A stretch of 64,000 nt of DNA, taken from assembly GCA_964016885.1 (NCBI GenBank), contig OZ024742.1, positions 229,710,001 through 229,774,000 on the forward strand, written 5' to 3'. Of this stretch, positions 1 to 64,000 are shown one piece after another (the first letter of the stretch is position 1; every line of letters begins with the position of its first letter). The stretch is from Eledone cirrhosa. Lineage: Eukaryota. The notes under the pieces are model-generated. The model worked only from the letters and a program-made list of their open reading frames with translations. It was not told the DNA's origin and made no database searches. Made by a program: the position numbers and the translations under genes.

Positions 1-2159
1 ATAACTTTTAGCTAATATTCCAGTAGGAATCGTGTTTTTTTCCTCTTTTAACACATCGTAACACACACTGATTTGTAACACATTGACATTTAATGGGTCT
101 TTCTAAAAATAAAAAAATAAAAAAAATGTAATAGCATTCCGATCTAGGCAAATGAGTTTTTGTCATAAAATATTATTATTCCCTGCGATGTTATTAGGAG
201 TTGTCTTACATATTATTTTATATTTATTTTATTTTACATTTACAAAAAAAAAAAAAAAAAATTGATAAAGTCTATTGCTTATACAGCATTACATGTATAA
301 TTTCAGGTAAGCTAGCAGTAGGTATAGCTCGGAAACTACTTTCGGTTTCAGATTAAAGTGATTTATGTTATTGATATATAATCGTGTAAGCCGCTAGATG
401 GTCGGACGGAATACTAATGATATTCGTCCGATTCTTTGGGCTCCGAGTTCAAATCCCATTGTGGAGTCGAACATTTCTTACTTTCTCTTTGACTCCTAAT
501 TTTCTGCAAGAAATCCGCTGTATTCAGACCTAGAGACGAATGAGCTCCATTAGATTTAAATACCCAAGTCGGCCCTTTTAAGACACCACATGTAAAAAAA
601 TCATATAATATTATTGATGCATGCATGGCAGGCAAGTTAAGATGTATAGGTCGCAATCGAGAATTCCTAGGCTAGATACTACTGCATGACTTCTTGTACC
701 AGTGTTTTATACCTTAGTCTTTTGAGTGAAATTGAGCTGATGGAAATTGTGCGGATGATTAAAGGTACACGTAATTGTCGAATACTTAACCACTCGCGCT
801 TTAATTCGTACGTCGGACGTTCAGTAGCTCAAACAGCTGCATATTCATCGCAGAAACCAGGGGAGGATCTATCATAACATAAATGTATATTTTAAGCATT
901 TGAGCGAGTAAAAACCTTTTGTACCTCTAATTCAAAGTTTAGATGTTGTGTTACACTGATTCTGCTTGAGAATTATTTGAAGGTCTCATATGCTTGTTGT
1001 ACTTGTAGAATACTTAAAATTATATACACCTTAATACAAGTTGAATATACATGTAATTCAAAGTTCATCTGTGTCACATATTTTGTCATATTACTACTGC
1101 GTGAGAATTATTTAAGGTTAAGTGCAACGTGTCTGCAGAATAGTAAACCCCTTACACGTTAATTGCTGTTTCGGCCATTTAGTCGATCGAAAGATTAAAA
1201 GATTAACGTCGTAACCGACGGAGGATCTGTCTTAGAATTGTGATAAATATAAGAAAGATGCAACTTAGCCTTGTTCACTTCCGCTTAAGTACAGCATACC
1301 GAAGAATATCAAATGTGTGTCGTTTATAATGATAAACGTTTATGTTAGAGAGATAACCTGTTTTGCAGTGGATGGTGGATTAACAGAATCAGTTGATCCT
1401 CGGACAGAATAGTTTTTTTCAGATCTTTACCTACTAAGCTCAAATATCAACACTGGTCGACATTGAATTTCATTTCCTGAAGACTAGAAAATGAAGGAGT
1501 TCGATTTGCAGCCTAGTAGTTTCGAGTTCAGTGCAACTGTTCGACAATATAGGGAAGGCCGGACTGAAAAATTTACTTGAGAATTTTAATTCCGCGAAAG
1601 CACTATACATATTTCGCTGACGTAGCCCTATTATCAGATTCTGAGTTCAAATCCCGCCGAGGTTAACTTTGCCTTTCATCCTTACGGGGTCGATAAATTA
1701 AAGTACCTGTAATGTACTGGTAATTGCTGGCCTTGTGCCTAAAGTATAAACAATTATCAGATGCATCACTAGCCGATTTCATCAAGTGGTATTTGCGAAA
1801 TTATATAATAGGTATACGTTGAACCCAAACAAAAAATAGAAAATAAAACATTGAAAATAGAAAAGAATGGACCGGTTGGATTCGGTGACAGCCTGCTAAT
1901 TCGTGATATATCAGTGGCAGGCGGTTCCACTCACTAGGCCATCAAAATATGCGGTATCAAAAGACTTAAGTAAATTTTTCAGTCCAGCCTCCTGTTTTTG
2001 TTTTAATGAATAATTAACCATGTTCCTGCACCAGCCAGATGATTCCCCATCTACCATGGATGATTTGCATAACGTTGAGTGCTGTTATTAATTCATTGCA
2101 TCATTGTTTCCCAAAGAGAACTACTACTTGTACAGATTCATAAACAGCTTAACATAAAT

Positions 2160-2202
<43 letters not shown>

Positions 2203-2960
2203 TGTATATATATATAGATAGATATGTGTGTGTAAAAATATACATACATATATATATACGTATATGTATATTGTATATATATAGAGAGATAGGTAGATAT
2301 GTGTGTGGTGTGTGTAAAAATATACATACATATATATACGTACACACACACACACACACACATATATATAGGACTAGCTTTTATGTATATATGTATGCGT
2401 GTGCGTGTGCGTGCGTGTATAATCTTGTCTGTGTTTATGACACGTAACTAACCGATCGACAAAACTGGATCTATAAAATACATGTAAGACTTTAAAAAAA
2501 AAATCAGTGGAATAGATATGTTCAATTACAATGAAGCGATGCTGCTGCATCGCCGCAGTCTAATTGCTGCAAAAATAATAGAGCAGTAACCACATTAGTA
2601 TCTAACTAATAACGTGTGGTTTAATGGTTATGGTGTTTCGCTTGTGATCGTAATGCTGCAATTTCGTTTCTAAGCGGTATACTATGTTCTTCAGTGAAAC
2701 ACTATAACTGACGTTTCTCAGTTCACTTATCTAGCAAAGAAACATATTACTCCAAAAAGTGAGCCTTTTAACTCGCTCTGAGTCAAATTGAATCTCTCTG
2801 GTTATTTACACATCGGTGAAGTGATCCGCCACATCAAATATACGTAGGTCGTTTGAAAAGTTGAAAGGCGGAAAAGTTCATAAGCTGACCAAGATACTCT
2901 CAAGGTTTATTTTTCAACATGTAAAGGAATAATGCAGTTATTAATAAGAATAGTTTAAAT

Positions 2961-3290
2961 CAGGGGTGTGCAACAGGTGGCCTGCGGGCCACAATACGGC
3001 CCGCCAGAACAGTCAGAGTGGCCCGCGATGACCGTTTTTAAATGTTACCTTGTAGGCTTATTTAGAATTTTTTTCGTAACCGTAATACAATTTTATGTTA
3101 GTTGACATATACCAAATACCATGTCCCGCATTAATAAAACTAAATTATATTTTATTTGTCTTTATTGGTTAAAAATGTATTTACAATGTATTTATAACTC
3201 AAGTCACTGGTTTTCATTAGATTACATATTTTTCACGGAGACGGGCCCTAATAGTTGTTCCAATGTTCAAAAGTGGACCGCCAATGGAAT
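2961..3290 (+). mobile_element. hAT/Charlie-like MITE fragment
   Basis: Starts caggggtgtgcaac..ggcctgcgggccac..cggcccgcc, a typical hAT-Charlie terminus; no right TIR seen. Confidence 0.55.
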
Positions 3291-3562
3291 GGTTTAAATT
3301 AATGCAAGCAATATTTCACAACCCTATCATCACTCCTTCATCTTCAGCCTATGAACTTTTCAGCCGGCTCTCGTATTATAAGATAGACTAAATCTGTAAT
3401 TTCTTACAAACAGTGGTGCGATGAATCTTTCGTATATCTACGTTAAGTGTACACTTACCTCTGGAATGTTCAGGCATTTGCACGTAAATCCCACAAGTAT
3501 ATTCTTTCGTTAATCGAACAATTAGCAAACTCATCAGGCTAACACAGGGAGGTCTAACGCAC

Positions 3563-3692
<130 letters not shown>

Positions 3693-4481
3693 GAAAAACC
3701 GGTTGATAGATTTCTGTCAATTTCGACTGTGATTGTTCCAGTGTTTTGCTTGACGGAACAGCGTGATCATAGATACGTGAATTTGTGTGAATAACGTAAT
3801 TTGTGTGAGACACAGCATGTGAGATGGCAGGTCCTTTGCAATACAGGTAAAAATCCATCCGACGGACGAGTTTCCAAATAGTTTCCGTATAAGCAATTTC
3901 ATTCACTAAGGAGGGGTCAACTCGTGGCTGTGAGAAATTGAAATTTTCCATGATAGCATATAATGAAATCTAGCCCGGATCCTAATGAATCCAAAGTGAA
4001 TCTCTGAATCATTAGGCTATAGTGCTTCCACAATACACGCACATACTAACGCAAACACACACAGACGTAGACGACAAATCACACACATACACTCATACAT
4101 TCACAAGCACATACACAGAAATACAAACACCTTCTTTCTTACTATTAATTTCCCAATCATAAAACAGTGATGTAAAACGTTGTAGTTGTTGGATACAGAT
4201 ATTAACTCATCAATCCCATTGTCCTAAGTTATATACACATACATATAAGTATAAATCTACTCAGTGATGAAGTTGTAAAATAAAAATACTTTATCTACAC
4301 TCCTCTCCAGAAATAAAATATACTCAATACAGTATATAAAATCATTGTAAATATTTTCTAATGTATTCAAAGTAATTTCTTTTCTCTGTTAAATAAACAA
4401 TTATGTTCACACACATCACACATACCACACATTCACAAAGACAACATATTTTCTTTCATTAGTGTTTATATATATATATAC

Positions 4482-21310: not shown

Positions 21311-21981
21311 CACCTCTGCGCTCTTGTCCTAGACGCAAAGTCCAATCTCCCTTTCTCATTCCCCCCTCCCATCTCTTCTGCGACACCAGAGCTCCTCCTC
21401 TTCCCGTTCTTTTTCTTCTTTCTTTCGCTCTTTTCTTCTTTCTTCCGCTCCCTATTCTTTCTTTCCTTTTGTTTCCCCCCCTTTTTTTTCTGTAAGTGTT
21501 TTCAATTTTCTAACAATTGTATTACTGTCTTAGTTTCTTCCAACTCAGCTGTTTAAGAGGAACAGATGTATTCAATGTCATCCTGCGAAGTGTAAATCAT
21601 TCGTATAGAATCATTATTATATTGACAATTTCAGAAAGAAATATGTCTAGTCTGAAGTGTATCTTAATTTCACAGTAAAATTGTTTGGAAATATAGAGAA
21701 GACTTTGAAATATTTGACAACTCCAGAGATAACTCAGGAATAACATAATAGCTAGATACAATATTTATGTGAATGCGGACATATTTAATGAAGGGAATAT
21801 TTAAAATACAAGACAAACTTTAGTCGGAAATTAACTATGACGATGAGGTAAAAATGATAAAAAATTAAAAGAATAATAATAAAAAGCAAGAACAGTCATT
21901 AACTTATATTTTTCTGGTTATGCATATACTCAAGGCCTGTATTACCATTGCTGCCAACTAGGCAACATCATCGAATGCACA

Positions 21982-22080
21982 CATCGTAGTGTGCAAACAG
22001 CGTAGTGTGCAAACAGCGTAGTGTGCAGACACCGTAGAGTGCAAACATCGTAGAGTACACATATCATAGAGTGCAGATAT
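21982..22080 (+). repeat. 16-bp minisatellite, ~6 copies
   Basis: Unit cgtagtgtgcaaacag, decaying toward the 3' end. Confidence 0.85.
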
Positions 22081-23438: not shown

Positions 23439-24690
23439 CATAGTATTTAGTATAAACATGTATGTTTGATCATTTGATTCGACGTCCAGTTATGTCCACC
23501 ACTCTATAGTTGAGGAGGTGCTTTTAAACAGGCCCTTCATTGGACACGTTGACAAACAGATTCAGTTTTCCTTGATCGTTCATCTACGGATTTCTAACCC
23601 CCCCCCCCACACACACACCTGCATACATACATACAAACATGCATACACACATACATACATACATAGATACATACATACATGGTAGCCACTACTTTATATC
23701 CATGTAGGAGAACGCCTACCGATATGCTGAACAAGTGTGACTTTTCAGTCCAGCCAGCGACTTGAAAACTGTGGTTCAAACACTACACTAGTGACAATTA
23801 TTGACACATAGTGCTGGGCCCATGGTACCATGTGACGACAAGTGCAGAGAGATCTCCAGATATAAAGCAATGCCTGTGCCGTGAAGCTTTTATAGTGAGC
23901 AAAGGCACTGCACAAAGCCAGACCCACTCTCTTAACCAAGATGATATTTACTAAAAAGAAGAACACGTCAACATCATTGGATACCATCAGAGTTGCAGGT
24001 GTTATATCAGAGTTTTCCTTCTCCTAGAATTCTGCCTTGACAAAGGCTAAGGGGTCATCTCTCCCGGTGATTTTGGCTGGCCATTGACATACATACTTGT
24101 ATGTATGTATGTATATTGACCGCATCCAAAAGAGCCAAGATTTCAAATTAATAAAAAAAAAATTTAATTTTTTTATTTCAATACAGCACTTTATTAGACA
24201 AGATTTTAGGGGGAAAAAATCTATCTAAAAGTGATTCAAAGAGATTCTAACATGATTCTAACACTTCATCTTGAAAGAAATGACTTAATACGTACAAACG
24301 CTACATCAACACCGGTCTTACAGCTGTTGCGAAACTACTGTACAAACAATATTTCGATACTGGACGCATTGTATACTGCTAGCTTATACTTCTTTTCTAC
24401 ATTTATTTCCTTCCCTCACTCTCACTCTTTATCCATCTCTAACCACTGGATGTTTCAGCTCGCCTCTCAGTCACATTTACACCCCGAACACATCCCCGTC
24501 TGTACAGCATCCAGCGACAACTCACACCCTAACATGTCTGAGGTTCCTTCTAAGCCCTAACCTGACGTCGAGCATAAATAGAGTGATCCAACTGTAATAA
24601 TTTCTTCCCACTCTTTCATTCTGCACCGTCCTGAGAGTCTGCAGATGCTGTTTTATATATATATATATATATAGATATAGATATATATAT

Positions 24691-33257: not shown

Positions 33258-34949
33258 TGTGTGTGTGTGTGTTTGTGTGTGTGTATATATATATTTATAC
33301 ACATGTATCATGTTGACACTGCTATAGAGGAAGTTCTATTTAATAGTACTCATCATATGGAGTCGGTTTTGATGGTGACTATGCTGATAGTGATGGTTGT
33401 GATTGTGGCTGTGGTGAGGGTTGGGTTGTGATGGTTGTGGTGGTGATAGTGGTTGTGATGGTGGAGGTAGTGGGAGTGGTTGTATTGTGGTGGTAGTGTT
33501 TGAGGTTTGGGGATTGTAGTAGTGTGGTGCTGGTCGTGATGGCAGTGGTTGTTATAGTTGTGTTACTGTTGTTGATAGTGGCATTACTGTTAGTGGTTTG
33601 ATCGTAATGTTGGTGGTACTGGTGGTCCTGATGTTGGTTGTTATTTTTGCTGTTGTTGATGTTACTGTTTGAGTTGTGGTCTTTGTATCTCCCTGTGTAG
33701 ATCTCTACTTCCATTTTCCCCTATGCATACTAGTGTATAGCGATTCCCCCGTGTGGTCAAAAACAAATGTTGAATAAAGCAACATTAAAAGAGCACACAC
33801 ACTCATTTACATACAGAAACACAAACAACACCAACACACAGATCACTCATAGATATATACAGACACATATATACACGTACTCATGCACACACTTTCGCAC
33901 ACACACAGAAAAAGAACGCCTAGATAAATACATATAGACACACACGCCCAAACAATTAAAATCACACAAACGCATATACAAACACAAACACAAATTCATA
34001 CACCCATACGTATAAACGCTCACATATAAAAACATACCATTACACCGTGTGTCACATGCACACACACACGTATATACACACAAATACAAACACACACCCA
34101 CAAACACACGCACATATACACATGAGCACATACGTATGATGGCATTTAAAATTATGTGAAGGTTCCTCTGTAAGGTAGGTGCAAATGCCATGGGCGCTTC
34201 TTTCAGTTACCCAAGATAAATATATATATACTACGGCATTGTGTAGTTTTCCCTATTTAGCATTGTTAGTGTATGTATGTACGCACATATGTATGTATAT
34301 ATGTATGTATGTCAGGTCGCTCTCCAGTACTACTGGTAGCATGTAATCCAGTACAACCCGTCTCAAGGTCGGGTCGTCGGCGACTAAACTGGCAACACCA
34401 CCAAGCTTACTTGATGAAGAGGGTGATATTCGGACAACCCCCGGGATGAAATACAAGACCCGGTATAGGGCGGAGGAACTCTGAAAAGAAAAAAAAACCT
34501 GCCGCTTCGGCAGCATCAGATGATGATGACTAGTGGTTCTCCTTTTCGGGTAGTGTTTTCGATGCTCAGAGAGTGGGATTGGTTGAGTGCAAGGCCTTTC
34601 CCCACTTAAAAAAACCTTCAAAGCACAGGCATTGCTTGTTCAATATCTGTACAGTTTCGTGTGGCAGGTCGTAGCCTAAAAGTGCACCAAACTCTATAAA
34701 CTGACAAGTATTTTTGCAATAATCTTAGCAGAGTGTGGAGCCATCGTGTATGTATGTATGCATGTATCCCTGCCTGCACACTTGTGTATAAATATATATA
34801 AACACGCACTAATTGCGGAACTAGCTGTTGAAACGGCAAGAGCTCAGTCGTCGAATTCCCGACTCTTTCATATTACCACACTCTACTACAACAAGTATCA
34901 AGTACCCTGGTGAGTAATGGTCTAACAGAATTTTACTGCATACATTTTG

Positions 34950-39284: not shown

Positions 39285-42200
39285 TCCGCTAATATGAAAA
39301 AAAACAAGAACAATAAGAATAGAATGAAAAGCAAAGGAATAAAATTATTGGTTTGTGTTATCAAAATAGCCGCTATACTTAGGTAAATTATAGAGTAGAT
39401 GTTAGTATTTAAATGTATGTTTCGAACGTTTTCCCCATAAAAATAACTTCATTAATTCAATGTCTATATTTTCTCTTATTAATTATTTGAGAAAATATCA
39501 CAACCTCATTCATAAACAGCTAATAATATTTAATGTCTATCTATTTAGTTTATATTGCTCTTCTGACTTTCATTTGGCCTACAAAGAGGAAACAGCAATA
39601 AGGCGATGATGAGGATGATAATGGCGGCAGCAGTAACTTCAGAATTATGTGATGATGAAAATATCGACTGCAATTTCAATCTAAAAATATTTTAATTTTC
39701 ATTGTTTTTATTTGTGGTGATTTTTACTGTTCAAGAGAATTATCAACGTTTAAGACGTTGATCTTTCATGTGATAGAACAAACATCGTTTCCGAGCTTGC
39801 GTGTGTGTGTGTTTGCTTATATATGCATTTATGTATATATTAACGACAGAGTTTGGTAGTACTTCTTACTTATATAGTATGTGTGTATTTATTTGCAGAA
39901 AGGTAAACACACATGCAAATTATGTATGTATCTACCTACCTACTTAAATACCTTACCAAACTATATATTCATTTACGTAATATATAATATATGCTATATA
40001 TGTATGTGTATGTACGTATATGTATGTACATTTGTATGTACATGTATATGTATGTATATATGTATGTATGAATCTATGTATGTAAGTCAGGTCCCTCTTC
40101 AGAGCTACTGCTAACATGTAACCCAATGCAATCTGTGCACGATCGTCGATAACACCAGCAACCCCTCAAAGTTTACTTGCTGAGGAGGGTGAATTTGGAC
40201 ACCCTGCGGGATGAAAAACAAAACCCAACAAAGGGTCGAACTCAGGAACATCAACGACCATCCAATAAATCATTTTGTTTTGTGGAGCGAGAGACTCCTA
40301 GTCTTCATTAAGGCATCTCTCTAGGAAAAGATTACTCTTGTATAAAACCTGCGACTTCGTTTGCATCCAATGATGTAGAGCAGTTCTTCTTTTTGAGCAA
40401 AGGCATTCGATGTTCAGAGAGTGGGATTGGCCCCGTGCAAAGCCTTTTCTCACTTAAAAAGACTTCAAGCAAAGTATTGTCACGTCCGCTTCAGTATCAA
40501 GCGATGATATTACACGAATCGAGTTGCAACCACCATCTATGTCTGATGCAAGTATGTACGTATGTATGTTTGTATATGTGAGAGTGTATGGATATGTGTA
40601 TACGTTTACATTTGTATTTTGTTTTTAAATATGTAATTATCCTCAAAGTAATTTGGTAACTGACTTAAATTGGCGAGTGTTAGACAAAGTATTATTCATA
40701 AGAAGCTGTAAGTTGCTCCGTCTTACTTTTGTTGACAGAAATGAAGTAGTAAACACCATGTGAAACTAGACGAGCTGTTCGACGGTATACTTATAAAGGA
40801 AACCTGTTGTAAAAGTATCTATTTACTTAAACTGAATTATGATTTCTTCACTCGCACACCGTATAAGTCATTTACTAAATATATTTTTAAATGCGCCTTA
40901 CGTCCTGACATCTATCCCTAGCAGAGACCATCACATTCTAGGTGTAAACTTAGCGGATTGCTACTGGAGAAAGTGGGGGAGAGAGTGAGTGTGAGAGCGA
41001 GAGGGGGAGAAGGAGGAGGGGGAGGGGCGAGATGAGAAAATGAGCCAGAGAAAGAATCGAAACGATAAAAGAGACAATTGGCCTCGGGGTGCAGACAACG
41101 GGACCGTGTATCTCGAAACATTTTATCCATCGTTGTAACGAATCTGCTACTTCACTGCCTAGATACTATATGATGTCAATCTGTAAAGAATAGGATTTTC
41201 ACTTGAATAGCGCAAGATTGTCGTTTCCTCAATGGTGATATTAAAAAAAATGTAGCAGCTATTTCTATCGGTAGTAGCATTTAGAAACTTCCCATTGACT
41301 CACATGCTTGAGATAATGGTTAGAAATATGAGAATTACGCAGTGTTTTATTTGTTTGGTAGTATGTGTTTGCAATAGCGGCCATATTTAATCGTAATTTG
41401 TTTAACGATTTGTAAAGATGTGCTGAATCATAGAAAATTCAAGAGAATGAAGAACCTGTTAGAAAACTGGAACGCATTAGAGTTACAGTAGAGGATTCTT
41501 TCATTTTCATATAGTTTAGAATTGATAGACGCAACGTTTCAGCAGTTCAAACTCAGACCAATTTATTTTCATCAAAATTGTTTCGTATTAACAAATATTT
41601 CAATTTGCAGATCAATATAGAATATTTGGTTAGATTTATACATTTATATGATGTTATATATTGGAATTTGCCTCTTTCCTTCTGACTATTGTCGCTCCAG
41701 TTTTGGATATAAGATCGGAGTTGATGAGAAGCAAACAAAAAGAAAAGAATAGAAAAGAAAAGCGTAATTAAAGCTGACATCTAAACTTACAGCAAACTAT
41801 TCCATATTATTTTCAAAAAGAAAATTATAACACTTTGCACAAAAATTTGATAATTCATTTTTCCTCTTTTATTTTTCCGTGTTCTCTTCGTCTTCTTCCT
41901 GGTAATTAGAGAACCGATATAGAGTATGTATTTAAATTGATTAATCAAAATTACTTAATCGATATATCTGAGTTAATTTGAAGTTGCTAGAATTAATAGT
42001 CATCAACTTTGATTTTTCTGAAGCGCGAAAATTAGTCATTAATTTACTGTTCTTTTAATCAACACATATCTTGTGTTGGCGGTGTTTCTATATTTTAATC
42101 AAATTTGCGCGAAATCCTGCAATACAAGCTATAAAGAAAAAGCTATTTCCATACATTTTATCGTGATGTTATCGCACTGAGCACGATTCCTTGATTAACT

Positions 42201-42415: not shown

Positions 42416-42588
42416 TAATATGTATAAGTAAATAAATGAATAAGTAAACGAAATAGATGAATAAATAAATAGTGATTAGTTAATTAACGGAATTATTTCC
42501 GTGAAACATAATTTAATGAATAACAACTAGAAAAACATAATTATAAAATAACTTAACGCATTTCAAAGTGTTTAAACTGCAACATTGA

Positions 42589-42589
<1 letters not shown>

Positions 42590-42657
<68 letters not shown>

Positions 42658-42743
42658 CAGTAGTAGTAATAATAGTAGTAGTGGTGGTAGTAGTATAGTA
42701 GTAGCAGCAGCAGCAACAACAGCAGCAGTAGTAGTAGTAGTAA

Positions 42744-42792
<49 letters not shown>

Positions 42793-42795
42793 TGC

Positions 42796-42883
<88 letters not shown>

Positions 42884-42925
42884 CAGTAGTAGTAGTAGTA
42901 GTAGAAGTAGCAGTAGTAGCAGTAG
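42590..42925. repeat. Compound (TAG)n/(CAG)n microsatellite
   Basis: Direct reading. Confidence 0.97.
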
Positions 42926-43619: not shown

Positions 43620-45117
43620 GCTAATGAAACTTAACCTCACATGGAGGCGTAGGGGCGCCGTGTTGACACAAGCTGTGTATTAAAGGCCGAAAATTCGACA
43701 GACATAATCTGAGGAATTGATGTTAATACCCGAAAACTCCTAAACAACACCGGAAACTTCCACATCAACAGTGGCATCGAACCGCCTCTAGTTGTAACGT
43801 AAGCAGACAACCAGAGGACTTAAATCAGTCCAGACAGCATTTCAGTGTCACATCATGTCTCTCTGACAACATCTACGAACTTTCAAGCTTAGGGCGCATT
43901 TATCGAGCAAGTCTGTCTGCATGAGACAGATGAGATCATGAGAGTTGGGAAGGATTGCTTTGAAATATACTCCCTGCCTTATAATAAAAAAAACTCACAC
44001 CCAGGGAAATTGCTCAGCAATACCGCAGTGAATCGATGGATGATAAGCTGCATGGTTATCAGCAAAAAATATTGTGCATGGATGTGTTGCTAGGTGGCTC
44101 CAGAGTGGGAGTAATATAGATAAACAAAGTAGACTATCTTGGACCAACAACCGCTATAGTGGCTCCCACTTTGAAGGATTCGCTTTTGCAATCCAAGAAC
44201 AGGATACTAATACCAAATACCTGATTCACAAAAGAGATAGCAAATACCTGATTCATGCAAAACACATACGACAACAAATGTATACCCTGCGGGATTACAA
44301 TCGAAGATGTCACTCATGTAATAAGCAGCTGTTCAAAGATGTCATCAAGGTACTATCTAACTATGAGGCATGGTCCAATGTAATCGGCAGAAAATATATC
44401 CCCAGCAATAAACATATTAAAAGTTACAGCAATGTGGAAGATATATCCATACATATTATGAAAGAGTACTGGTGGAAAGTTCCAGTCAAAACCCCAATAA
44501 AATGCAGGCATAACAGACCTGATATTATGATAAGTGACATGAAAAGAAGGCATGCAGAGTAGTAGAAGTTAGCTGCTCAGCAGATGCCAATATAGTATCA
44601 AAGATTGGCGAAAATGAAAATATCTATGTAGAACTAACGAGGAATCTGCAGATACTCCACCCTGATTATACCTTCAGATTTATGCCTGTGATTATTGGGA
44701 CACTGGGATATGTTAGTAATTGCCTCAGTACAAACCTTGAGAAGCTGGGCTTCACAGAAACAGAAAGAACACAAGTTAAGAAATTACAATTGTAATCCAT
44801 CAATGGAACAGTAAAAATATGTAAAACATTCCAAAAATTCTGCATCTGATAACTTCATATACACATGTACAGACACAAAGCATATGCACATGTACACATA
44901 AAACTCAAAACATACACATATACACATACAATAACATCCATACCTACACACACATACATGCATGCAACATGCATACTTATCTATCTAGTTGATCGTGTTT
45001 AAATTCCAATGGAAGAGTCTTGAGTCTATGTAAGAATCCTACTCTCTCGCCTTTGAGAAAAAAATTATATAATTATATAATTATATAATTATATAATTAT
45101 AACCCAGAAAAACATAA
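43620..45117 (+). pseudogene. Decayed, 5'-truncated R4/Dong-like element (C-terminal/RLE region plus 3'UTR)
   Basis: Frameshifted SHFEGFAFAIQEQDTNTKYLIHKR, KEYWW..HNRPDIM, VVEVSC, PVIIGTLGY and GTVKICKTF are colinear with the C-terminus of the intact ORF; the element ends at (TACA)n. Confidence 0.88.
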
Positions 45118-45193
45118 TACATACATACATGCATGCATACGTACATACATACATACATACATACATACATACATACATACATACATACATACA

Positions 45194-48100
45194 AAATGGC
45201 CACCGTTGTGGTCAGTGTCCGATAATCGGACGTGTGTAATTACGGCTTACATGAAGGCAACATACCATATATTGGAAAAAGTTGAGCTACATTACGCGGT
45301 AAGATTACATACAATAATTCTACATAAGTGTTTGAACTGTAAGTGTGTTGTAAAACACCTATTTATATGAACGATACATACACTTATGATATATGAACGA
45401 TACATACACTTTAACATATAAATGCAACGTTGTTATATTACATTTATAAAGAAATATTACATTTATATAAAACACAGCTGTAGAATTAAAAACTAACTGA
45501 AAAGAAATATTACTCAAGCTGTGAATAACTTTAAATTTGATTCTGACAGAACTTTGTCGTAACTTTTAAAGAAGATCATCGACTATTTTGAAAAATAAAT
45601 ACGAAATATTAGTGAATAGACGAACTCATCATGGCAAAAAGTACAAGTCTCCTTCGACCAAATCGCAATTACAACCGTTGTATACAGTGGACCTACGAGC
45701 TTAACAAAGTATTATATGAAGCATACAAACAATCTGAACCCCAAAAGTTCGGTTTTATGCAAAGGCTAAAAACTTTATGGAACTCCAAACACCCAGAATT
45801 AGACTTTTCTCCAAAGCATTTAAATGAACAGGCAAAACGTATCATTAGATGTAAATTGATACATCTAACGGAATCGAGTGATACTACAAATACAGCCCTT
45901 GTAGACAACCACTCCACCTCCACTGACAGACAAAGGGAATGGCCAGCTAAATCTAACAGTGAACAGCTCACCAACAATTTTGCTGAAATTCATCCCACTT
46001 CCACTGAAGAACAGCGAGAAAGGTCAACTGACTCTAGTAGTAATTGTCACCACATCAACAACGAGGCTGAAATTCATGACTCTACTGAACAAACAGAGCA
46101 CCAAAAACTTGTGGGCTCCCTACAAGTGATATGGAATGATATGTTTCAAGAGATACACAGTCTTAATGTGAGTGACAGACCATACAACACTAGAGTCAGT
46201 AAAGAACCCACTAAATTGGAATTGGAAGCGGTGAACGAAATAGCTGGCAATTATCTGAAGGCTATACGATCTAAAGGTGTAGAAACGACATTTGAAACGC
46301 TTAATGTTTTGTTATATGTTTCAGCTGTCACATTGCTAGCATATAACACACATCTAAAACCACGCAATCAAGATACAAACAGAAAGCCTGAACCAGCGTG
46401 GATGCGAAATTTAAAAACCAAAATTTTGTCCCTGAGACGAAGTATCTCACACATCGCAGTCGTTATGAAATGCAACACAGAGAGCAACTTCACACAACAC
46501 CAGGAAGACCTAAAGAAAAAGTTAGAGAGAAGATTTGGAGATACAAAATTTAAAACTTTGAACTCCAAATTACACCAGTTGAAACAACAACTCACAGCTA
46601 CAACAGAAAGACTAAAATATAAGTCAACAGCACATAAACGACAAGTGCTAAATAGATTGTTTGCCAGAGATCCTAAATCAGTTTATCGCAGCTTCGGTGG
46701 CAAAAGCTCAATCTCTGTAAATGACACCCCTTCAAAAGAACAGGTTGAGAGCTACTGGAGATCTGTATGGGAAACGGATGACGGATTCAACAGACAAGCT
46801 AATTGGCTAAAAGAACTGGAACAGGACTACTGCCAACATGTCCAGACAAAACAATATGACATAGATGGGTCAATACTGGAAACAGCTCTACAGAAAATGT
46901 CGAATAGGAAATCGCCAGGCCCAGACCTCATTACAGGATACTGGTTGAAGAATTTCACTTTCTATCGGCAAGATCTCATACGGCTGTTTACAGAAACCAT
47001 TAAGGGCACACAAGAACTGCCCAGATGGTTATCAACTGCCTCTACTCTCCTCATTCCCCAAAATAGCCAAACCACCCTTGCTAAAAATTACCGCCCAATT
47101 GCCTGCCAAAACATCATGTATAAATTATATACTGGGTGCCTTAACCTGTTCTTACAGGATCACTGTGCTACCAACAACATCATAACACCTGAGCAAGCTG
47201 GTGGAAAGAGGGAGGTGTGGGGTTGCATAGATCACCTACTAACTAACAAAATGATTCAGGAAAAAACAACAAAGAATCGCAGAAACATGACTGTCGTGTG
47301 GCTGGACTATCAAAAAGCATTTGATAGTGTACCTCATGGGTGGATTGTTAAGGCTTTACAGTTAGCTAAAGTCCCACAACCATTGGTAGCTGCTGTTGAA
47401 CGCCTGACCAAGAACTGGTACACCAGTTTGATCCTTAGAGGTGAGAAGGAGCAGGTTAAGACTGATAAGATACATTACCAGAAGGGCATCTTTCAGGGTG
47501 ATAGCTTGTCAGTGCTACTCTTCGTTCTCTCACTGAATCCACTATCTTACCTACTCAGGAAACAAGGTCGACAAAGAAGTGGGACCAGAAGTATCTCCCA
47601 TCTTTTCTTTGTTGATGACCTGAAGTTGTATGGGCCAAATATCAATGACATCAAGAAACAATTGGACCTCATTACACAATTTTCAACCGACATCAAAATG
47701 AAATTTGGTGAGTCCAAGTGTGCATATTTGGCAGTAAAACGTGGAAGAGCTGTGCCCTCCTCTAGAAATCTAGAGATGAACGGCCTGACAATACAACCTC
47801 TGCAGTCAGGTGACAACTACAGATATCTTGGACAGGATGAGAATGTCAGATATGATGGACCCATAAATAAGGAGAGAACCAGAACTGAATACCTCAGAAG
47901 AGTAAAGAAAATATGGTCATCAGAACTGTCAGCATACAACAAATACATTGCCCACAATACTTATGCTGTGCCAATTCTAACGCCAACATTTGGCCTACTG
48001 AACTGGTCATTGCAAGAACTAAGTGAGATGGATGTTAGAACTCGAAAACTTCTCAGTGTTACTGGGAACTTTAACATCAATGGTGATGTGGATAGGCTAT

Positions 48101-49220
48101 ACTTCTCACGCAAGGAAGGTGGCCAGGGTCTAAAATCAATATTAACAACATATGAGACCCGGATAGTGACACTGAAGCAACACCTTCAACAGAGGAAAAA
48201 GGTTGGTAACCATTTTGCCCAGGTTTATGACCATGAAAAAAGAAATATCATTAGAATAGCGACTGATCTGGAGGAGAGATATGGAATAAAGCCCGATATA
48301 AATCTCTCACCCAGAGAAATCGGAAGATCCTATTCAATGTTCAAACAAGAAAAAAAAATTGACCAATTTACAGAAAAAGTTGTGCATGGATACTTGAGGC
48401 GTAAAACACAGACCATAGAGGGGATAAACCACTCAAAAAGCCTGGCATGGAGTTCCGACAAGTTTATGACATCACACCTTGAGGGATATCTCTATGCAAT
48501 ACAGGAACAAGAACTCCCTACCAAATATCTGCTGCACAAAAGAGGAGGGCCAGCAGCTGACAATAAATGTAGGCTATGTAAAACAAAGATCGAGGATGTA
48601 AGCCACATTGTTGCCAGCTGCGAAAGAATGTCGTCTCGCTACTACCTCCCCATGAGACACGATGGGATAGCTAGAACCATCTGGAACGCACTTCGGAAAA
48701 CAAAATCAACAACAAACGAGGAAGAATATATTGAGACAGATGGCACTAAGGAATACTGGTGGAACCTGAAAATAAAAACTGCCACCAAATTAAAGCACAA
48801 CCGGCCTGATATTGTAGTTTGGGACCACACATTGAAAACGTGTTCTGTTGTGGAGATCAGCTGCCCACTTGATGTAAACGTTGTCAGAAAAATACAGGAG
48901 AAGGAGGACATCTACGGACCATTGATGAGGAGTTTACAAATCCAGTATCCAAGATACACCTTTAGCTTCATACCCATCATTATTGGTGCTACGGGTTATA
49001 TACCAACCCGCTTGGACCAAAGTATGACTGAACTTGGATTTGCGGACAAAAAGCGCAGCTCCCTAATTCATAGTCTACAAATGGCTGCGATAGCTGGCAC
49101 CTTCAAAATTTGCAAAACATTCTTGCGATTCAAGGGATGACAATTTCTTTTCTTTTACAACCTTGCCACCAGGAAGGTGGCCGGTCAAAAAATATACTCA
49201 AAATTAAGAGAAAGAGAAAA
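45194..49220 (+). mobile_element. Full-length R4/Dong-like element inserted in (TACA)n
   Basis: (TACA)n 45118-45193 abuts a ~440-bp 5'UTR; the ~80-bp A-rich 3'UTR ends at 49220 and is followed by CATACATA. Confidence 0.85.
45631..49140 (+). CDS. Non-LTR retrotransposon protein, R4/Dong-like clade (RT + CCHC zinc knuckle + restriction-like endonuclease)
   Basis: Uninterrupted 1169-aa ORF. RT motifs KSPGPD, NYRPIAC, WLDYQKAFDSVPH, GIFQGDSLS, LFFVDDLKLY, YRYLG; CCHC knuckle CRLCKTKIEDVSHIVASC; RHD; RLE RPDIVVWD..VVEISCP..K. The N-terminal WTYELN..Y..P..G..RL..W..P block without zinc fingers resembles R4/Dong. Confidence 0.95.
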   Translation: MAKSTSLLRPNRNYNRCIQWTYELNKVLYEAYKQSEPQKFGFMQRLKTLWNSKHPELDFSPKHLNEQAKRIIRCKLIHLTESSDTTNTALVDNHSTSTDRQREWPAKSNSEQLTNNFAEIHPTSTEEQRERSTDSSSNCHHINNEAEIHDSTEQTEHQKLVGSLQVIWNDMFQEIHSLNVSDRPYNTRVSKEPTKLELEAVNEIAGNYLKAIRSKGVETTFETLNVLLYVSAVTLLAYNTHLKPRNQDTNRKPEPAWMRNLKTKILSLRRSISHIAVVMKCNTESNFTQHQEDLKKKLERRFGDTKFKTLNSKLHQLKQQLTATTERLKYKSTAHKRQVLNRLFARDPKSVYRSFGGKSSISVNDTPSKEQVESYWRSVWETDDGFNRQANWLKELEQDYCQHVQTKQYDIDGSILETALQKMSNRKSPGPDLITGYWLKNFTFYRQDLIRLFTETIKGTQELPRWLSTASTLLIPQNSQTTLAKNYRPIACQNIMYKLYTGCLNLFLQDHCATNNIITPEQAGGKREVWGCIDHLLTNKMIQEKTTKNRRNMTVVWLDYQKAFDSVPHGWIVKALQLAKVPQPLVAAVERLTKNWYTSLILRGEKEQVKTDKIHYQKGIFQGDSLSVLLFVLSLNPLSYLLRKQGRQRSGTRSISHLFFVDDLKLYGPNINDIKKQLDLITQFSTDIKMKFGESKCAYLAVKRGRAVPSSRNLEMNGLTIQPLQSGDNYRYLGQDENVRYDGPINKERTRTEYLRRVKKIWSSELSAYNKYIAHNTYAVPILTPTFGLLNWSLQELSEMDVRTRKLLSVTGNFNINGDVDRLYFSRKEGGQGLKSILTTYETRIVTLKQHLQQRKKVGNHFAQVYDHEKRNIIRIATDLEERYGIKPDINLSPREIGRSYSMFKQEKKIDQFTEKVVHGYLRRKTQTIEGINHSKSLAWSSDKFMTSHLEGYLYAIQEQELPTKYLLHKRGGPAADNKCRLCKTKIEDVSHIVASCERMSSRYYLPMRHDGIARTIWNALRKTKSTTNEEEYIETDGTKEYWWNLKIKTATKLKHNRPDIVVWDHTLKTCSVVEISCPLDVNVVRKIQEKEDIYGPLMRSLQIQYPRYTFSFIPIIIGATGYIPTRLDQSMTELGFADKKRSSLIHSLQMAAIAGTFKICKTFLRFKG

Positions 49221-49940
49221 CATACATATATGGTGGCTGCCAACTCGTTTTCGAGTACGGCCACTACCTTATATCCATGTAGCAGGACCCCTACCGATGC
49301 GCTGAACAAGTGTGACTTTTTAGTCCAGCCAGCGATTTGAAAACTCTGGTACAAACACTACACTTGTGACAATTATTGAAACATAGTGCTGGGCCAATGG
49401 TACCATGTGACGACAAGTGCAGAGAGATCTCCAGATATAAAGCAATGCCTGTGCCGTGAAGCTTTTATAGTGAGCAAAGGCATTGCAAAAAGCCAGTCCC
49501 ACTCTCTTAACCAAGATGATATTTACCAAAGAGAAGAACAAGTCAACATCATTGGATACCATCAGGGTTGCAGGTGTTATATCAGAGTTTTCCTTCTCCT
49601 AGAATTCTGCCTTGACAAAGGCTAAGAGGGTCATATCTCCCTGTGATTTTGGATGGCCATTGACTCTTAAGAGCTCCTTTGCCCTTTGACAGGTTTTGTC
49701 TTTACTCCTGCAGGATGTCCAAAGTCACCCTCCTCACCAAGAAACCTTGGTGGGGTTGCCAGTTTAGTCGCCAACGACCCGACCATGAGACAGGTTGTAC
49801 ATACATACATACATATACATACATACACACACACACACACATATATATATATAAAATTGAGATAAACGGAACAAGTAAAATTCAAACAATTTCTGTAGAT
49901 AAATTAAAAAATATAATTTAAATATTTACCTATCCATATT

Positions 49941-50915: not shown

Positions 50916-53272
50916 TGGTAGCAATATTTTCCGGCAGCTCCCCATGCCAGCAATAGTACGAGATGTTAAGATCCGAATCTAGACTGATCGAGGAATCACT
51001 TTTGCGCATAGGTTGTATAGTTTGGCTTCGCATGGTATCAACGGCTAGAAACCAATGGTAAGGTCAACAACTTTAGAGAATACACCAGCTGCGTTTATCG
51101 TGGCACCAACACTAGTATTTTTCCGATTGTATGGTGTGAATTTCTGTGGCATCAGCACTACCACTTTATTGAGTGTGTTGGTGCAATTTATCCTACCAGC
51201 ACTTAGCATTTTGTTATAAAGATGTAAACGGGTTAAAGTTAGTGATGTTTCCGTATATTTTCAAGTTGGAAATATCTGTTGTTCTGAGACCTCGAACAAC
51301 CTATATACGTACTGCGATTGCGATATGAGATATCTATCCGTAACAACGAGACCCGCGAAGTGGACCGACTTTTCCAATACATTCATCTCCCGCGTTCTTC
51401 GGTATAAAGGTAACCTCAAAGCAGGTACAATGCATGTGAGGATAAGTGAATCGAGTTTCTTTTTGAATCACTCAATACAAACAGCAGGCATTATCTCAAA
51501 TTTGGGAGTTTTGATTTATCTGTATCTACGAAGTTTAGTTTCTCTGTGTGTTAATGCATATAGGGGTATCTAAGCCAACACACTAATCGGTATAACATAT
51601 ATATTACAACTATCACGCCAGCAGGTCCTAGAAAGTATGATTTATCAACAATTAAATAATATAAAGAATCGTGTTTTAATTTCTCTTTTTAGATTTGAGT
51701 AAACATGTATATGTTTATGGTGCATTCATGATCCCAGCTGGAAGTTGGCGAAGGTGATGGACTGAAAAATTCATCCCATCACGCCAGGATAATTCTTGTA
51801 TAGGAGCCATCTATATCATGATCGTAGACAGTCGGTAGGTGGTTCGAAGAGCCATCGAAAATGAACTGTCCCAGAGTATGACGACAGAGAGATACTGAAA
51901 GTAAGAGTTTAGTTCGCACAACTCAATCGTAGATGGCTTATAATAACAAAAATATTTATGCATTTCGCATTTCAGAATTTGATCCCTATACACTGTTTGC
52001 CGATTGAAAGAACTGATGCTTTCAGACAAGTATATTCTTTACCATTTATTCATGCTATAAATTATATTGGGAACAAACTTTGTAAAATAAATAATTTTAT
52101 GCGATCAATTGATTACTCAATGCCATGTATATTCAAGAGCATTGTATTGGTGAAGGCATAATATCAAGTTTACTGGAGGTACAGAATATTCAGGAAACAA
52201 ATCCTAGTTATTGTTGCAGGAGTTTTATACCATTAGGTGATTCGGTTTCATGCAGAAAGTACGTTAGGGGATATACAGATTTATTTTTAAAATCATATTT
52301 TAAATATGTTCTGACTGCATATGTTGAAAATCCATTGTATATAGAATTTCCAAGATCTCTCATTCTATAATGGCATAATTCAAACAATGAGAACTTTAAT
52401 AGTATTTCCATATTGACATTCGTGCCCGAGATAATAATGGAACTTCAAAATATTTGCATGTCAACAAATAATTTTCAAAAATAAATTGATAAATACATTT
52501 TACCCAATCAGCAACCCTTAACAGAAAGACAATATAACAAGATTCAATTTACTGTAACTATTATGAAAGCTACGTATCAGACACTGCGGTCAATATACCG
52601 ATCTCATTATAAAATAGAGCCATTGCAATTCTCTTCGACTGAGATCAGGAGGTAACCACATATTGAGGTCCTGCATATCAGAAAAACAACACGAACGAAT
52701 AAAAGAACCGGACACCCTTTTATTGGTTGCTCCGAGAAAACATATATACATACATATATGATGATGATAGCTCAACTCGATTTCGAGTAATGCCAACACT
52801 TGATACTTAAGCATGAGCAACGCGGACGTGGTTTTTTAGTCCTGCTAGGAACTTGCCTATGGCAAGCAATACCACGCATCGCAAAAAGTCACATATCAAG
52901 CGGTGCCTGTGCTTGAAGCTTTTTGCAGTGAGAAAACGCTTTTCACCGGGCCAACCGCACTCTATGAACATCGAATACATTTACCCCAAAAGAGGAACTG
53001 GTCTACATCATTAGATGCAAACAAAGTCGCAGGTTTTATATCAGAGTGACCTTCTCCTAGAGAGATGTTTTAATGAAGACTGGGAGTCTCTCGTTTCACA
53101 GAAAAAAAAAACTTCTTTAGATGGCCGTTGACTTCTCTGAGTCCCTCCGCCCTTTGACGGGTTTTGTTTTTCATCCCGCAGTGTATCCATATTTACCCTT
53201 CTCATCACGAAAACTTGGTCGGTTCACCGGTTTAGTTGCTAACGACCCGACAATGTACAGGTTGTACTGGGT

Positions 53273-53310
<38 letters not shown>

Positions 53311-56519: not shown

Positions 56520-57163
56520 TTAATCTGTTAGTTTAATAAATATATATATATATATATATTGTCAGGTCACAAGTTGGTGCTACTGGTAACATGTATCCCA
56601 GTACAACCCGTCTCGTGGTCAGGTCGTTGGCGACTAAACTGGCAACCACACCAAGGTTTCTTGGTGAGGAGGGTGACTTTGGACATCCTGCAGGACTAAA
56701 AACAAAACCTGGCAAAGGAGCTCTTAAGAGTCAATGGCCATCCAAAATCAACGGGAGAGATGACCCCTTAGCCTTTGTCAAGGCAGAATTCTAGGAGAAG
56801 GAAAACTCTGATATAACACCTGCAACCCTGGTGGTTACCAATGATGTTGACTTGTTCTTCTTTTTGGTAAATATCATCTTGGTTAAGAGAGTGGGACTGG
56901 CTTTGTGCAGTACCTTTGCTCACTATAAAAGCTTCACGGCACAGGCATTGCTTTATATCTGAAGATCTCTCTGCACTTGTCGTCACATGGTACCATGGGC
57001 CCAGCACTATGTGTCAATAATTGTCACAAGTATAGTGTTTGTACCAGCGTTTTCAAGTCATTGGCTGGACTAAAAAGGTTCACTCGTTCAGCGCATCGGT
57101 AGGGGTTCTCCTACATGGATATAAAGTAGTGGCCGTACTAAAAAACGAGTTGGCAGCCACCAC

Positions 57164-57211
<48 letters not shown>

Positions 57212-62411: not shown

Positions 62412-62485
62412 AATACATACATACATACACAAATACATACGTATTTACATACATACATGCATACATACACACATAGATACATACA

Positions 62486-63775
62486 TGGTGGCTGCCAACT
62501 CGTTTTCGAGTACGGCCACTACTTTATATCCATGTAGGAGAACCCCTACCGATGTGCTGAACGAGTGTGACTTTTTAGTCCAGCCAGCGACTTGAAAACT
62601 CTGGTACAAACACTACACTTGTGACAATTACTGACACATAGTGCTGGGCCCATGGTACCATGTGATGACCTGTGCAGAGAGATCTTCAGATATAAAGCAA
62701 TGCCTGTGCCGTGAAGCTTTTATAGTGAGCAAAGACACTGCACAAAGCCAGTCACTCTCTCTTAACCAAGATGATATTTACCAAAAAGAAGAACAAGTCA
62801 ACATCATTGGATACCATCAGGGTTGCAGGTGTTATATCAGAGTTTTCCTTCTCCTAGATTTCTGCCTTGACAAAGACTAAGGGGTCATTTCTCCCGGTGA
62901 TTTTGGATGGCCATTGACTCTTAAGAGCTCCTTTGCCCTTTGACAGGTTTTGTTTTTACTCTTGCAGGATGTCCAAAGTCACCCTCCTCACCAAGAAACC
63001 TTGGTGGAGTTGCCAGTTTAGTCGCCAACAATTCGACCATGAGACAGGTTGTACTGGGATACATGTTACCAGTAGCACCAACTGGTGACCTGACATACAT
63101 ACATACATACATACATACATACATACATACATACATACATACATACATACATACATACATACATACATACATGGTGGCTGCCAACTCGTTTTCGAGTACG
63201 GCGACTACATTATATCCATGTAGGAGAACTACCGATGCGCTGAACGAGTGTGACTTTTTAGTCCAGCCAGTGACTTGAAAACTCTAGTACAAACACTACA
63301 CCTGTGACAATTATTGACACATAGTACTGGGCCCATGGTACCATGTGACGACAAGCGCAGAGAGATCTCCAGATACAAAGCAATGCCTGTGCCGTGAAGC
63401 TTTTATAGTGAGCAAAGGCACTGCACAAAGCCAGTCCCACTCTCTTAGCCAAGATGATATTTACTAAAAAGAAGAACAAGTCAACATCATTGGATACCAT
63501 CAGGGTTGCAGGTGTTATATCAGAGTTTTCCTTCTCCTAGAATTCTGCCTTGACAAAGGCTAAGGGGTCATCTCTCCCGGGGATTTTGGATGGCCATTGA
63601 CTCTTAAGAGCTCCTTTTCCCTTTCACGGGTTTTGTTTTTAGTCTTGCAGGATGTCCAAAGTCACTCTCCTCACCAAGAAACCTTGGTGGGGTTGCCAGT
63701 TTAGTCGCCAACGACCCGACCATGAGACAGGTTGTACTAGGATACATGTTACCAGTAACACCAACTGGTGACCTG
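62486..63775 (-). mobile_element. Head-to-tail dimer of a ~605-bp non-coding retroposon (62486-63092, 63172-63775) separated and flanked by (TACA)n
   Basis: Near-identical units. Other copies: 23680-24087, 49231-49800, 56563-57162 (opposite strand); diverged 34313-34746, 40088-40535, 52765-53275. Orientation inferred from an RTE-5'UTR-like tctaggagaaggaaaactctga motif and a terminal hairpin plus (ATGT)n tail. Confidence 0.85.
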
Positions 63776-64000
63776 ATATACATACATACATACATACATA
63801 CATACATACATACATACATACATACATACATACATACATACATACATGCATACATACATACATATAAATATATACATACATGCATTCATACATACATAAT
63901 GGGAGCCCCGTAGTTATCGTGTATGGCCATTACACGATATACCATTATTAATAATTATTAATTAATTATAACGTGCAATGGCTGTGCGTGAAGATATTTT

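What the first reader, a model, noticed from the sequence alone, without database searches (positions are those of the whole stretch)
45118..49230. Apparently intact R4/Dong-like retrotransposon with candidate (TACA)n target specificity
Seen: complete RT-CCHC-RLE ORF, left junction (TACA)n|AAATGG, right junction GAAAA|CATACATA. The decayed relative upstream also ends at (TACA)n. Known: RLE elements are often sequence-specific and Dong targets TAA repeats. Inference: a compact (4 kb), possibly active site-specific element for a tetranucleotide microsatellite, of interest as a TPRT gene-insertion tool.
Basis: partly seen in the sequence, partly recalled or inferred. Interest (0 to 1): 0.75.

Follow-up and report, generated by a model that had tools for sequence, protein, structure and literature searches.

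The report
TACA-microsatellite-targeting R4/Dong retrotransposon lineage
A very young 4-kb jumping gene sits inside TACA repeats, always facing the same way, at nearly all of its sampled copies, and distant relatives from other organisms sit in TACA or TACT repeats, so this branch likely recognises four-letter repeats where its known cousins use TAA.

Summary
Confirmed and extended. Window 45194-49220 is a full-length R4/Dong-type LINE with one 1169-aa ORF (predicted Myb-like domain, RT, CCHC, RLE). The family is very young: 159 exact 3' ends, 99.5% mean identity, 12 of 42 full-length copies with an intact ORF. TACA is a target, not a tail: 66 of 72 5'-truncated copies have (TACA)n upstream, none the reverse strand, against 0.07% background. 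A control Dong family in the same genome sits in (TAA)n (30 of 30) and never in TACA. The decayed upstream neighbour belongs to a second TACA family (22 of 24 ends). New here: of 14 metagenome relatives, 4 lie in (TACA)n and 4 in (TACT)n (37-47% identity where measured), all in a branch separate from TAA-type Dong that also holds Argonauta and Hydractinia proteins. Ten literature searches found TAA for Dong and ACAY only for the unrelated APE-type Waldo; Repbase could not be checked. The scan noted ACAT targeting elsewhere in this genome before (e1-10329220). Limits: this copy has five private substitutions, one in a conserved motif; no empty site, clear TSD or activity was shown; a dispersed microsatellite is a poor safe harbour.

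The parts
45194..49220 (+). Full-length R4/Dong-type non-LTR retrotransposon, short-5'UTR subfamily (4027 bp)
45113..45193 (+). Upstream (TACA)n target array, shared with the 3' end of the older relative
45194..45630 (+). 5' UTR (437 nt; about 630 nt in the older subfamily). Starts with an AAATGGC(G/C) motif resembling a YY1 site (recalled) and holds GGACGTG at 45228-45234, shared with relatives; no known ribozyme found
45631..49140 (+). Single ORF, 1169 aa
45676..45855 (+). Predicted three-helix Myb/SANT-like domain (aa 16-75), no N-terminal zinc finger
   Evidence: best Z 5.8, weak; described for R4/Dong in PMC7998251
47065..47808 (+). Reverse transcriptase core (FVDD at aa 660-663)
48568..48621 (+). 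CCHC zinc knuckle
48655..49128 (+). Restriction-like endonuclease (RHD, PD...E...K)
49141..49220 (+). 80-nt 3' UTR with predicted stem-loop, ending GAGAAAGAGAAAA
   Evidence: (z -2.83)
49221..49229 (+). Downstream half of the target (CATACATAT)
43717..45112 (+). Decayed, 5'-truncated copy of a second TACA-targeting Dong family with its own 3' UTR
49230..49800 (-). About 610-bp non-coding repeat family that also sits in TACA/TA arrays, likely transcribed from the minus strand

Best explanation
This is a recently mobile R4/Dong-type LINE whose copies sit in (TACA)n microsatellites in one fixed orientation, and its single protein likely binds the repeat upstream through a predicted Myb-like domain, likely nicks the TGTA strand, and would copy the element RNA into the nick by target-primed reverse transcription. 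Shown: both flanks, fixed polarity, a sharp 3' junction, 5' truncations, young copies, purifying selection on shared substitutions, family-specific choice of repeat, and the same (TACA) or a one-letter-different (TACT) repeat in distant relatives. Inferred: the nick lies at 5'-TATG^TATG-3' on the bottom strand (TAAG^TAAG in the TACT branch); recognition is by protein, mostly upstream; full-length RNA likely comes from an internal promoter rather than ribozyme cleavage; each insertion leaves repeat on both sides, so TACA families pile up next to each other.
For: 5' flank TACA in 66 of 72 truncated and 20 of 22 full-length copies; 3' flank holds two TACA units in 93 of 103; background 0.07% of 16,640 windows although (TA)n is 60 times commoner. 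Orientation 66:0. First downstream unit ACAT in 94 of 103, second in only 75 of 103, so the flank varies like a target. Upstream arrays are longer and purer (median 81 vs 56.5 nt, P 0.004), as expected from upstream binding in R2Bm (PMC10499050, passages). Control family: (TAA)n 30 of 30, TACA 0 of 30; this family TAA 0 of 103. Second family 22 of 24. Contigs of runs X2 and X7 (two organism labels) join the TACA flank to internal positions, with depth rising towards the 3' end. Metagenome relatives: 4 of 14 in TACA, 4 of 14 in TACT. Shared substitutions 40 synonymous to 43 replacement vs 147 to 441 in singletons, P 2e-5. Model matches R2 structures (E 5e-34).
Against: No empty site was seen, so pre-existence of each array is inferred. 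TSD test weak: 10 of 93 vs shuffled mean 4.3, maximum 7. 6 of 72 truncated copies lack a TACA-class 5' flank and 2 of these have no repeat at all. Specificity is loose: TA units are tolerated downstream (8 of 103 flanks class as TA, 22 as none at the strict cut). 6 of 14 metagenome loci show no flanking repeat, L357 and L360 show TACT only at the 5' end, and L361 is truncated after (TAA)n. The Myb fold match is weak (Z 5.8) and helix-3 residues do not sort cleanly by target, since L364 (TACA) resembles the TACT group. The window copy has five private changes.
Confidence: 0.85

Rival explanations
1. The nuclease is unspecific and targeting comes from RNA-DNA pairing: read-through transcripts end in (ACAU)n and can prime only at nicks in matching repeats.
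For: Every source copy is followed by ACAT units, so its RNA could carry them; first downstream unit is the most conserved (94 of 103); such pairing would also fix orientation.
Against: Upstream arrays are longer and purer than downstream ones, and 8 of 92 copies have 16 nt or less of repeat downstream; the second unit already varies; the junction is fixed to within a base or two, and the target is kept across 37-47% protein identity. Pairing may still help priming.
Confidence: 0.1
2. The element inserts at short or AT-rich sites and its RT writes TACA repeats at both ends by slippage or template jumps.
For: 5' junctions are ragged (16 forms in 39 copies) and 3 of 39 show short duplicated 5' ends; upstream arrays are often pure.
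Against: Flanks often carry locus-specific interrupted units on both sides; 28 of 93 copies have the end of another TACA-dwelling repeat within 250 nt upstream and 21 of 103 within 200 nt downstream, which points to arrays that were there first.
Confidence: 0.04
3. Copies insert at random and survive only in microsatellites.
For: The genome is rich in microsatellites.
Against: Copies are about 99.5% alike, leaving little time for sorting; commoner (TA)n, (CA)n and reverse-strand arrays are not used; a sister family picks TAA.
Confidence: 0.01

Closest known systems
Dong (Bombyx mori), DongAg, DongBg, ostracod Dong1/2 (R4/Dong clade, RLE)
   Same: Single ORF with diverged N-terminal Myb, RT, CCHC, RLE; microsatellite target on both sides (PMC7998251, PMC3812793, passages). 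29% identity over the whole length to Bombyx protein P0088 (E 2e-158), which is likely Dong but is not named so.
   Different: Target (TACA)n, or (TACT)n in relatives, instead of (TAA)n; separate deep branch with 100% local support; no HDV-like ribozyme found at the 5' end, whereas silkworm Dong has one (PMC3774820, passages).
Waldo (WaldoAg1/2, WaldoFs1; R1 clade)
   Same: Targets ACAY microsatellites, which include this repeat (PMC3812793, passages).
   Different: APE endonuclease, unrelated clade; the shared target is convergence.
Octopus Dong-R4 families
   Same: Known as abundant and recently active: 5 families, 1129 young insertions in O. vulgaris (PMC13282606, passages); a full-length Dong in O. 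bimaculoides (PMC9115989, passages). Nearest named protein is from Argonauta hians (55-62%).
   Different: The passages read give no target sequence; PMC13282606 has no occurrence of 'target' or 'TACA' in its main text.
R2 (R2Bm, R2Tg)
   Same: Same predicted architecture and TPRT chemistry.
   Different: 28S rDNA target, N-terminal zinc fingers, only the RT aligns by sequence (E 1e-28).

Membership tests
R4/Dong clade | Single ORF with RT, CCHC and C-terminal restriction-like endonuclease, no APE | tested here: met
R4/Dong clade | Diverged N-terminal Myb/SANT domain without zinc fingers | tested here: inconclusive
   Three-helix model at pLDDT about 90; top matches are Myb/SANT/trihelix domains but best Z is 5.8; aligns with the Bombyx and TAA-family N-termini; no Pfam hit
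R4/Dong clade | Closer to Dong than to R2 | tested here: met
   E 2e-158 full length to P0088 and 4e-136 to the TAA family vs 1e-28 to R2
R4/Dong clade | RT phylogeny with named R4, Rex6, HERO, NeSL and CRE references | not testable with these tools
   No named reference sequences were returned; trees are midpoint-rooted FastTree trees without an outgroup
Dong in the strict sense | Insertion into (TAA)n | tested here: not met
   0 of 103 3' flanks with TAA repeats
Dong in the strict sense | HDV-like ribozyme at the 5' junction | tested here: inconclusive
   No Rfam ribozyme and no hit with a home-made descriptor; the descriptor was not checked on a known ribozyme
Target-specific TPRT element | Same sequence on both sides of full-length and 5'-truncated copies, fixed orientation | tested here: met
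Target-specific TPRT element | Specific nicking and priming by the encoded protein | not testable with these tools
   needs biochemistry
Waldo (R1) | APE endonuclease | tested here: not met
   No APE domain; RLE at the C-terminus

The most novel reading that the evidence does not exclude
An old, undescribed sub-clade of R4/Dong elements, present from cnidarians to cephalopods, is specialised for TACW tetranucleotide microsatellites, reads them with one Myb domain and no zinc finger, switched from TACA to TACT in one branch, and is transcribed from an internal promoter instead of being cut out by a ribozyme. The TAA/TACA/TACT series would make the specificity code of RLE retrotransposons testable by domain swaps.
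Probability: 0.45. Interest if true: 0.7.

Novelty: new variant of a known kind. Interest (0 to 1): 0.58.

Why it matters
How RLE retrotransposons change targets is an open question that has been studied almost only on R2. Here two young families with open ORFs in one genome pick different repeats (TACA vs TAA), and relatives differ by one target base (TACA vs TACT), which gives natural pairs for swapping Myb and RLE domains. It also helps explain how repeats nest in this microsatellite-rich genome. As a gene-insertion tool it is compact (1169 aa), but a dispersed microsatellite gives many sites and no single safe harbour, so its value would be as a scaffold for retargeting.

Tried and rejected
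Self-encoded tail: rejected. Microsatellite abundance as the cause: rejected by background and the TAA control. TSD search: inconclusive. Ribozyme search: nothing in Rfam, only repeat-driven miRNA matches below gathering score, nothing by descriptor. Pfam on the N-terminus: nothing; Foldseek on it: no match at E 0.001. ESM Atlas gave no result. Mapping the ATAT form of the 5' junction on the copy tree: star-like, unresolved. Target-linked residues in Myb helix 3: confounded with phylogeny. Expression: no RNA holder listed, which is no evidence either way. An empty-allele test from reads could not be done, so polymorphism is untested. A protein search meant to find further families in the own genome gave loci nearly all of this family (30 of 150 matches fetched). 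The full tree search did not finish, so FastTree was used; P0090 was left out of the second tree as a long branch. Papers not held: Fell et al. 2025, PMC309301, PMC4400214, PMC3312299. PMC3124438, PMC8869645, PMC7650587, PMC5035012, PMC13580325, PMC8967140 and PMC4640811 (passages) list no TACA-targeting RLE element.
Full report
Observation. Window 45194-49220 holds one element of 4027 bp: a 437-nt 5' UTR, an ORF from 45631 to 49140 (1169 aa) and an 80-nt 3' UTR. The protein has an RT (PF00078, E 6.9e-24), a CCHC knuckle and the RHD, RPD, E and K residues of a restriction-like endonuclease, invariant in 17 aligned relatives. The AlphaFold model (pLDDT 87.8) matches R2 structures best (E 5e-34). 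Residues 16-75 form three helices whose top matches are Myb/SANT/trihelix domains at weak Z (5.0-5.8); such a domain is already described for R4/Dong (PMC7998251, passages).

Family. The own genome (3.0 Gb; likely an octopod cephalopod, inferred from the nearest named protein, Argonauta hians) has 159 exact copies of a 39-nt 3' end and 332 of a shorter 3' end followed by CATAYAYA. All 40 scored hits of the last 323 nt were 100% identical. Among 42 full-length copies, 12 keep an ORF of 1160 aa or more, and 22 short-UTR copies are 99.48% alike on average. Substitutions shared by three or more copies are enriched for synonymous changes (40:43 vs 147:441, P 2e-5), so source elements were under selection. 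The window copy has five amino-acid changes absent from 40 or 41 of the 41 others; one puts Q at 832, where all 21 aligned homologues have R or K. The family is recently mobile; this copy may be impaired.

Target or tail. From 136 loci carrying the 39-mer I kept 103 distinct copies (a subset of the 159, weighted to young copies; L146 and L147 look like one duplicated insertion). Nine had no 5' flank in the DNA held and were dropped from 5' counts. Of 72 truncated copies (breaks from element position 530 to 3953), 66 have a 24-nt upstream flank matching (TACA)n at 20 or more positions, 2 are (TA)n and 4 unclassified; of 22 full-length copies, 20 are TACA. Downstream, 73 of 103 pass the strict cut and 93 contain two units. 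In 200 kb from 20 arbitrary places, 0.07% of windows are TACA, 0.23% TGTA and 4.4% TA. No copy faces the other way (66:0). Downstream the first unit is ACAT in 94 of 103 and the second in 75; upstream arrays are longer (median 81 vs 56.5 nt in 92 copies, P 0.004). A TSD test gave 10 of 93 against a shuffled mean of 4.3 and is inconclusive.

Controls. Searching with the Bombyx protein P0088 found another young Dong family in the genome (28-31% identical to ours). Its 3' ends lie in (TAA)n in 30 of 30 loci and in TACA in none; ours lie in TAA in 0 of 103. The decayed upstream neighbour belongs to an older family with a different 3' UTR; 22 of 24 recognisable ends lie in TACA (6 of 30 loci had no recognisable end), and many of its truncations do too. 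Contigs of two public runs with different organism labels join the TACA flank to internal positions and rise in depth towards the 3' end (X2, X7; 4 of 24 listed runs laid); one of them may be the same species.

Beyond this genome. A metagenome scan returned 14 loci. L355, L356 and L364 have (TACA)n at both ends, L365 at the 3' end; L359 has (TACT)n at both ends, L357 and L360 at the 5' end only, L361 at the 3' end with a truncated 5' end after (TAA)n; six show no flanking repeat, mostly on short contigs. The six full-length ones are 37-47% identical to the window protein. The hosts are unknown, and shared contig prefixes suggest few independent sources. All seven long ones fall with the window element in a branch separated from Bombyx P0088 and the TAA family (local support 100); a Hydractinia protein falls there too, though its flanks were not seen. 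Comparing ends (GAGAAAA|CATAC, GAAGAA|CATAC, CGGA|CATAC, AATAC|CTTAC) places the target boundary before C, which implies a bottom-strand nick at TAWG^TAWG; this rests on two TACT ends and is inferred.

Mechanism. By analogy with R2Bm, where the Myb domain binds upstream and the RLE reads the nick site (PMC10499050, passages), the protein likely binds the repeat upstream, nicks the TGTA strand and reverse-transcribes from the 3' UTR; early stops give the truncated copies. Pairing of a read-through (ACAU) tail may help but is unlikely to be the whole story. Silkworm Dong is released by a 5' ribozyme (PMC3774820, passages); none was found here. Instead 6 of 7 heads carry RGAYGTS within 45 nt of the junction, which 0 of 2000 shuffles approached (motif chosen after seeing the data). 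It resembles a downstream promoter element, and the window family starts with a YY1-like AAAATGGCG; both labels are recalled and untested. Insertions cluster: 28 of 93 copies have another TACA-dwelling repeat end just upstream and 21 of 103 just downstream.

Novelty. [quoted passage not shown] Octopus Dong-R4 is known as young and abundant, with no target given in the passages read. Ten searches (most hits seen as listings only) found no TACA- or TACT-targeting RLE element. Repbase, Dfam, subscription papers and the supplements of PMC7998251 and PMC13282606 were not seen and may hold such families. The scan had already noted ACAT targeting on another piece of this genome (e1-10329220); the TACT branch and the outside relatives had no match in its notes. 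Verdict: a real, new target variant of a known kind of element; interest 0.58.

Noticed in passing
window 49230-49800 (-); also 62479-63098, 63165-63781, 56560-57167, 23685-24088: About 610-bp non-coding repeat flanked by TACA/TA arrays. 13 of 25 copies anchored at one end lose the other end, but only 1 of 30 the other way round, so it is likely a minus-strand SINE-like element that uses the same arrays in the opposite orientation; mobilising LINE unknown.
   Followed up: partly
window 40082-40545, 52890-53277, 34307-34637: Diverged relatives (69-78%) of that repeat; the 40082-40545 copy is flanked by the same microsatellite in matching orientation.
   Followed up: no
L357, L359, L360, L361: Relatives in (TACT)n, one base different from TACA.
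   Followed up: partly
L032/L086, L050/L115, L094, L355: Short duplicates of the element's first bases embedded in the upstream repeat, suggesting template jumps at the 5' junction.
   Followed up: no
window 45320-45480 and L032, L053: Two 5' UTR forms, about 434 and 630 nt, differing by a tandem segment; the short form marks the youngest burst.
   Followed up: partly
runs X1-X11: Near-identical sequence is held by runs under eight organism labels at shares of 0.27-0.72; could be related species, mixed samples or horizontal transfer.
   Followed up: no
L297, L298, L301: The TAA-targeting Dong family has a long 5' leader of about 1.2 kb.
   Followed up: no
G000:C2:343588640-343595295 and C2:211983668-211986007: Three 3' ends each at regular spacing (about 3.3 kb and 1.15 kb), suggesting tandem copies.
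   Followed up: no
window 42580-42925: Long (AGT)n/(AGC)n compound microsatellite; window 21964-22077 has a 16/48-bp tandem repeat.
   Followed up: no
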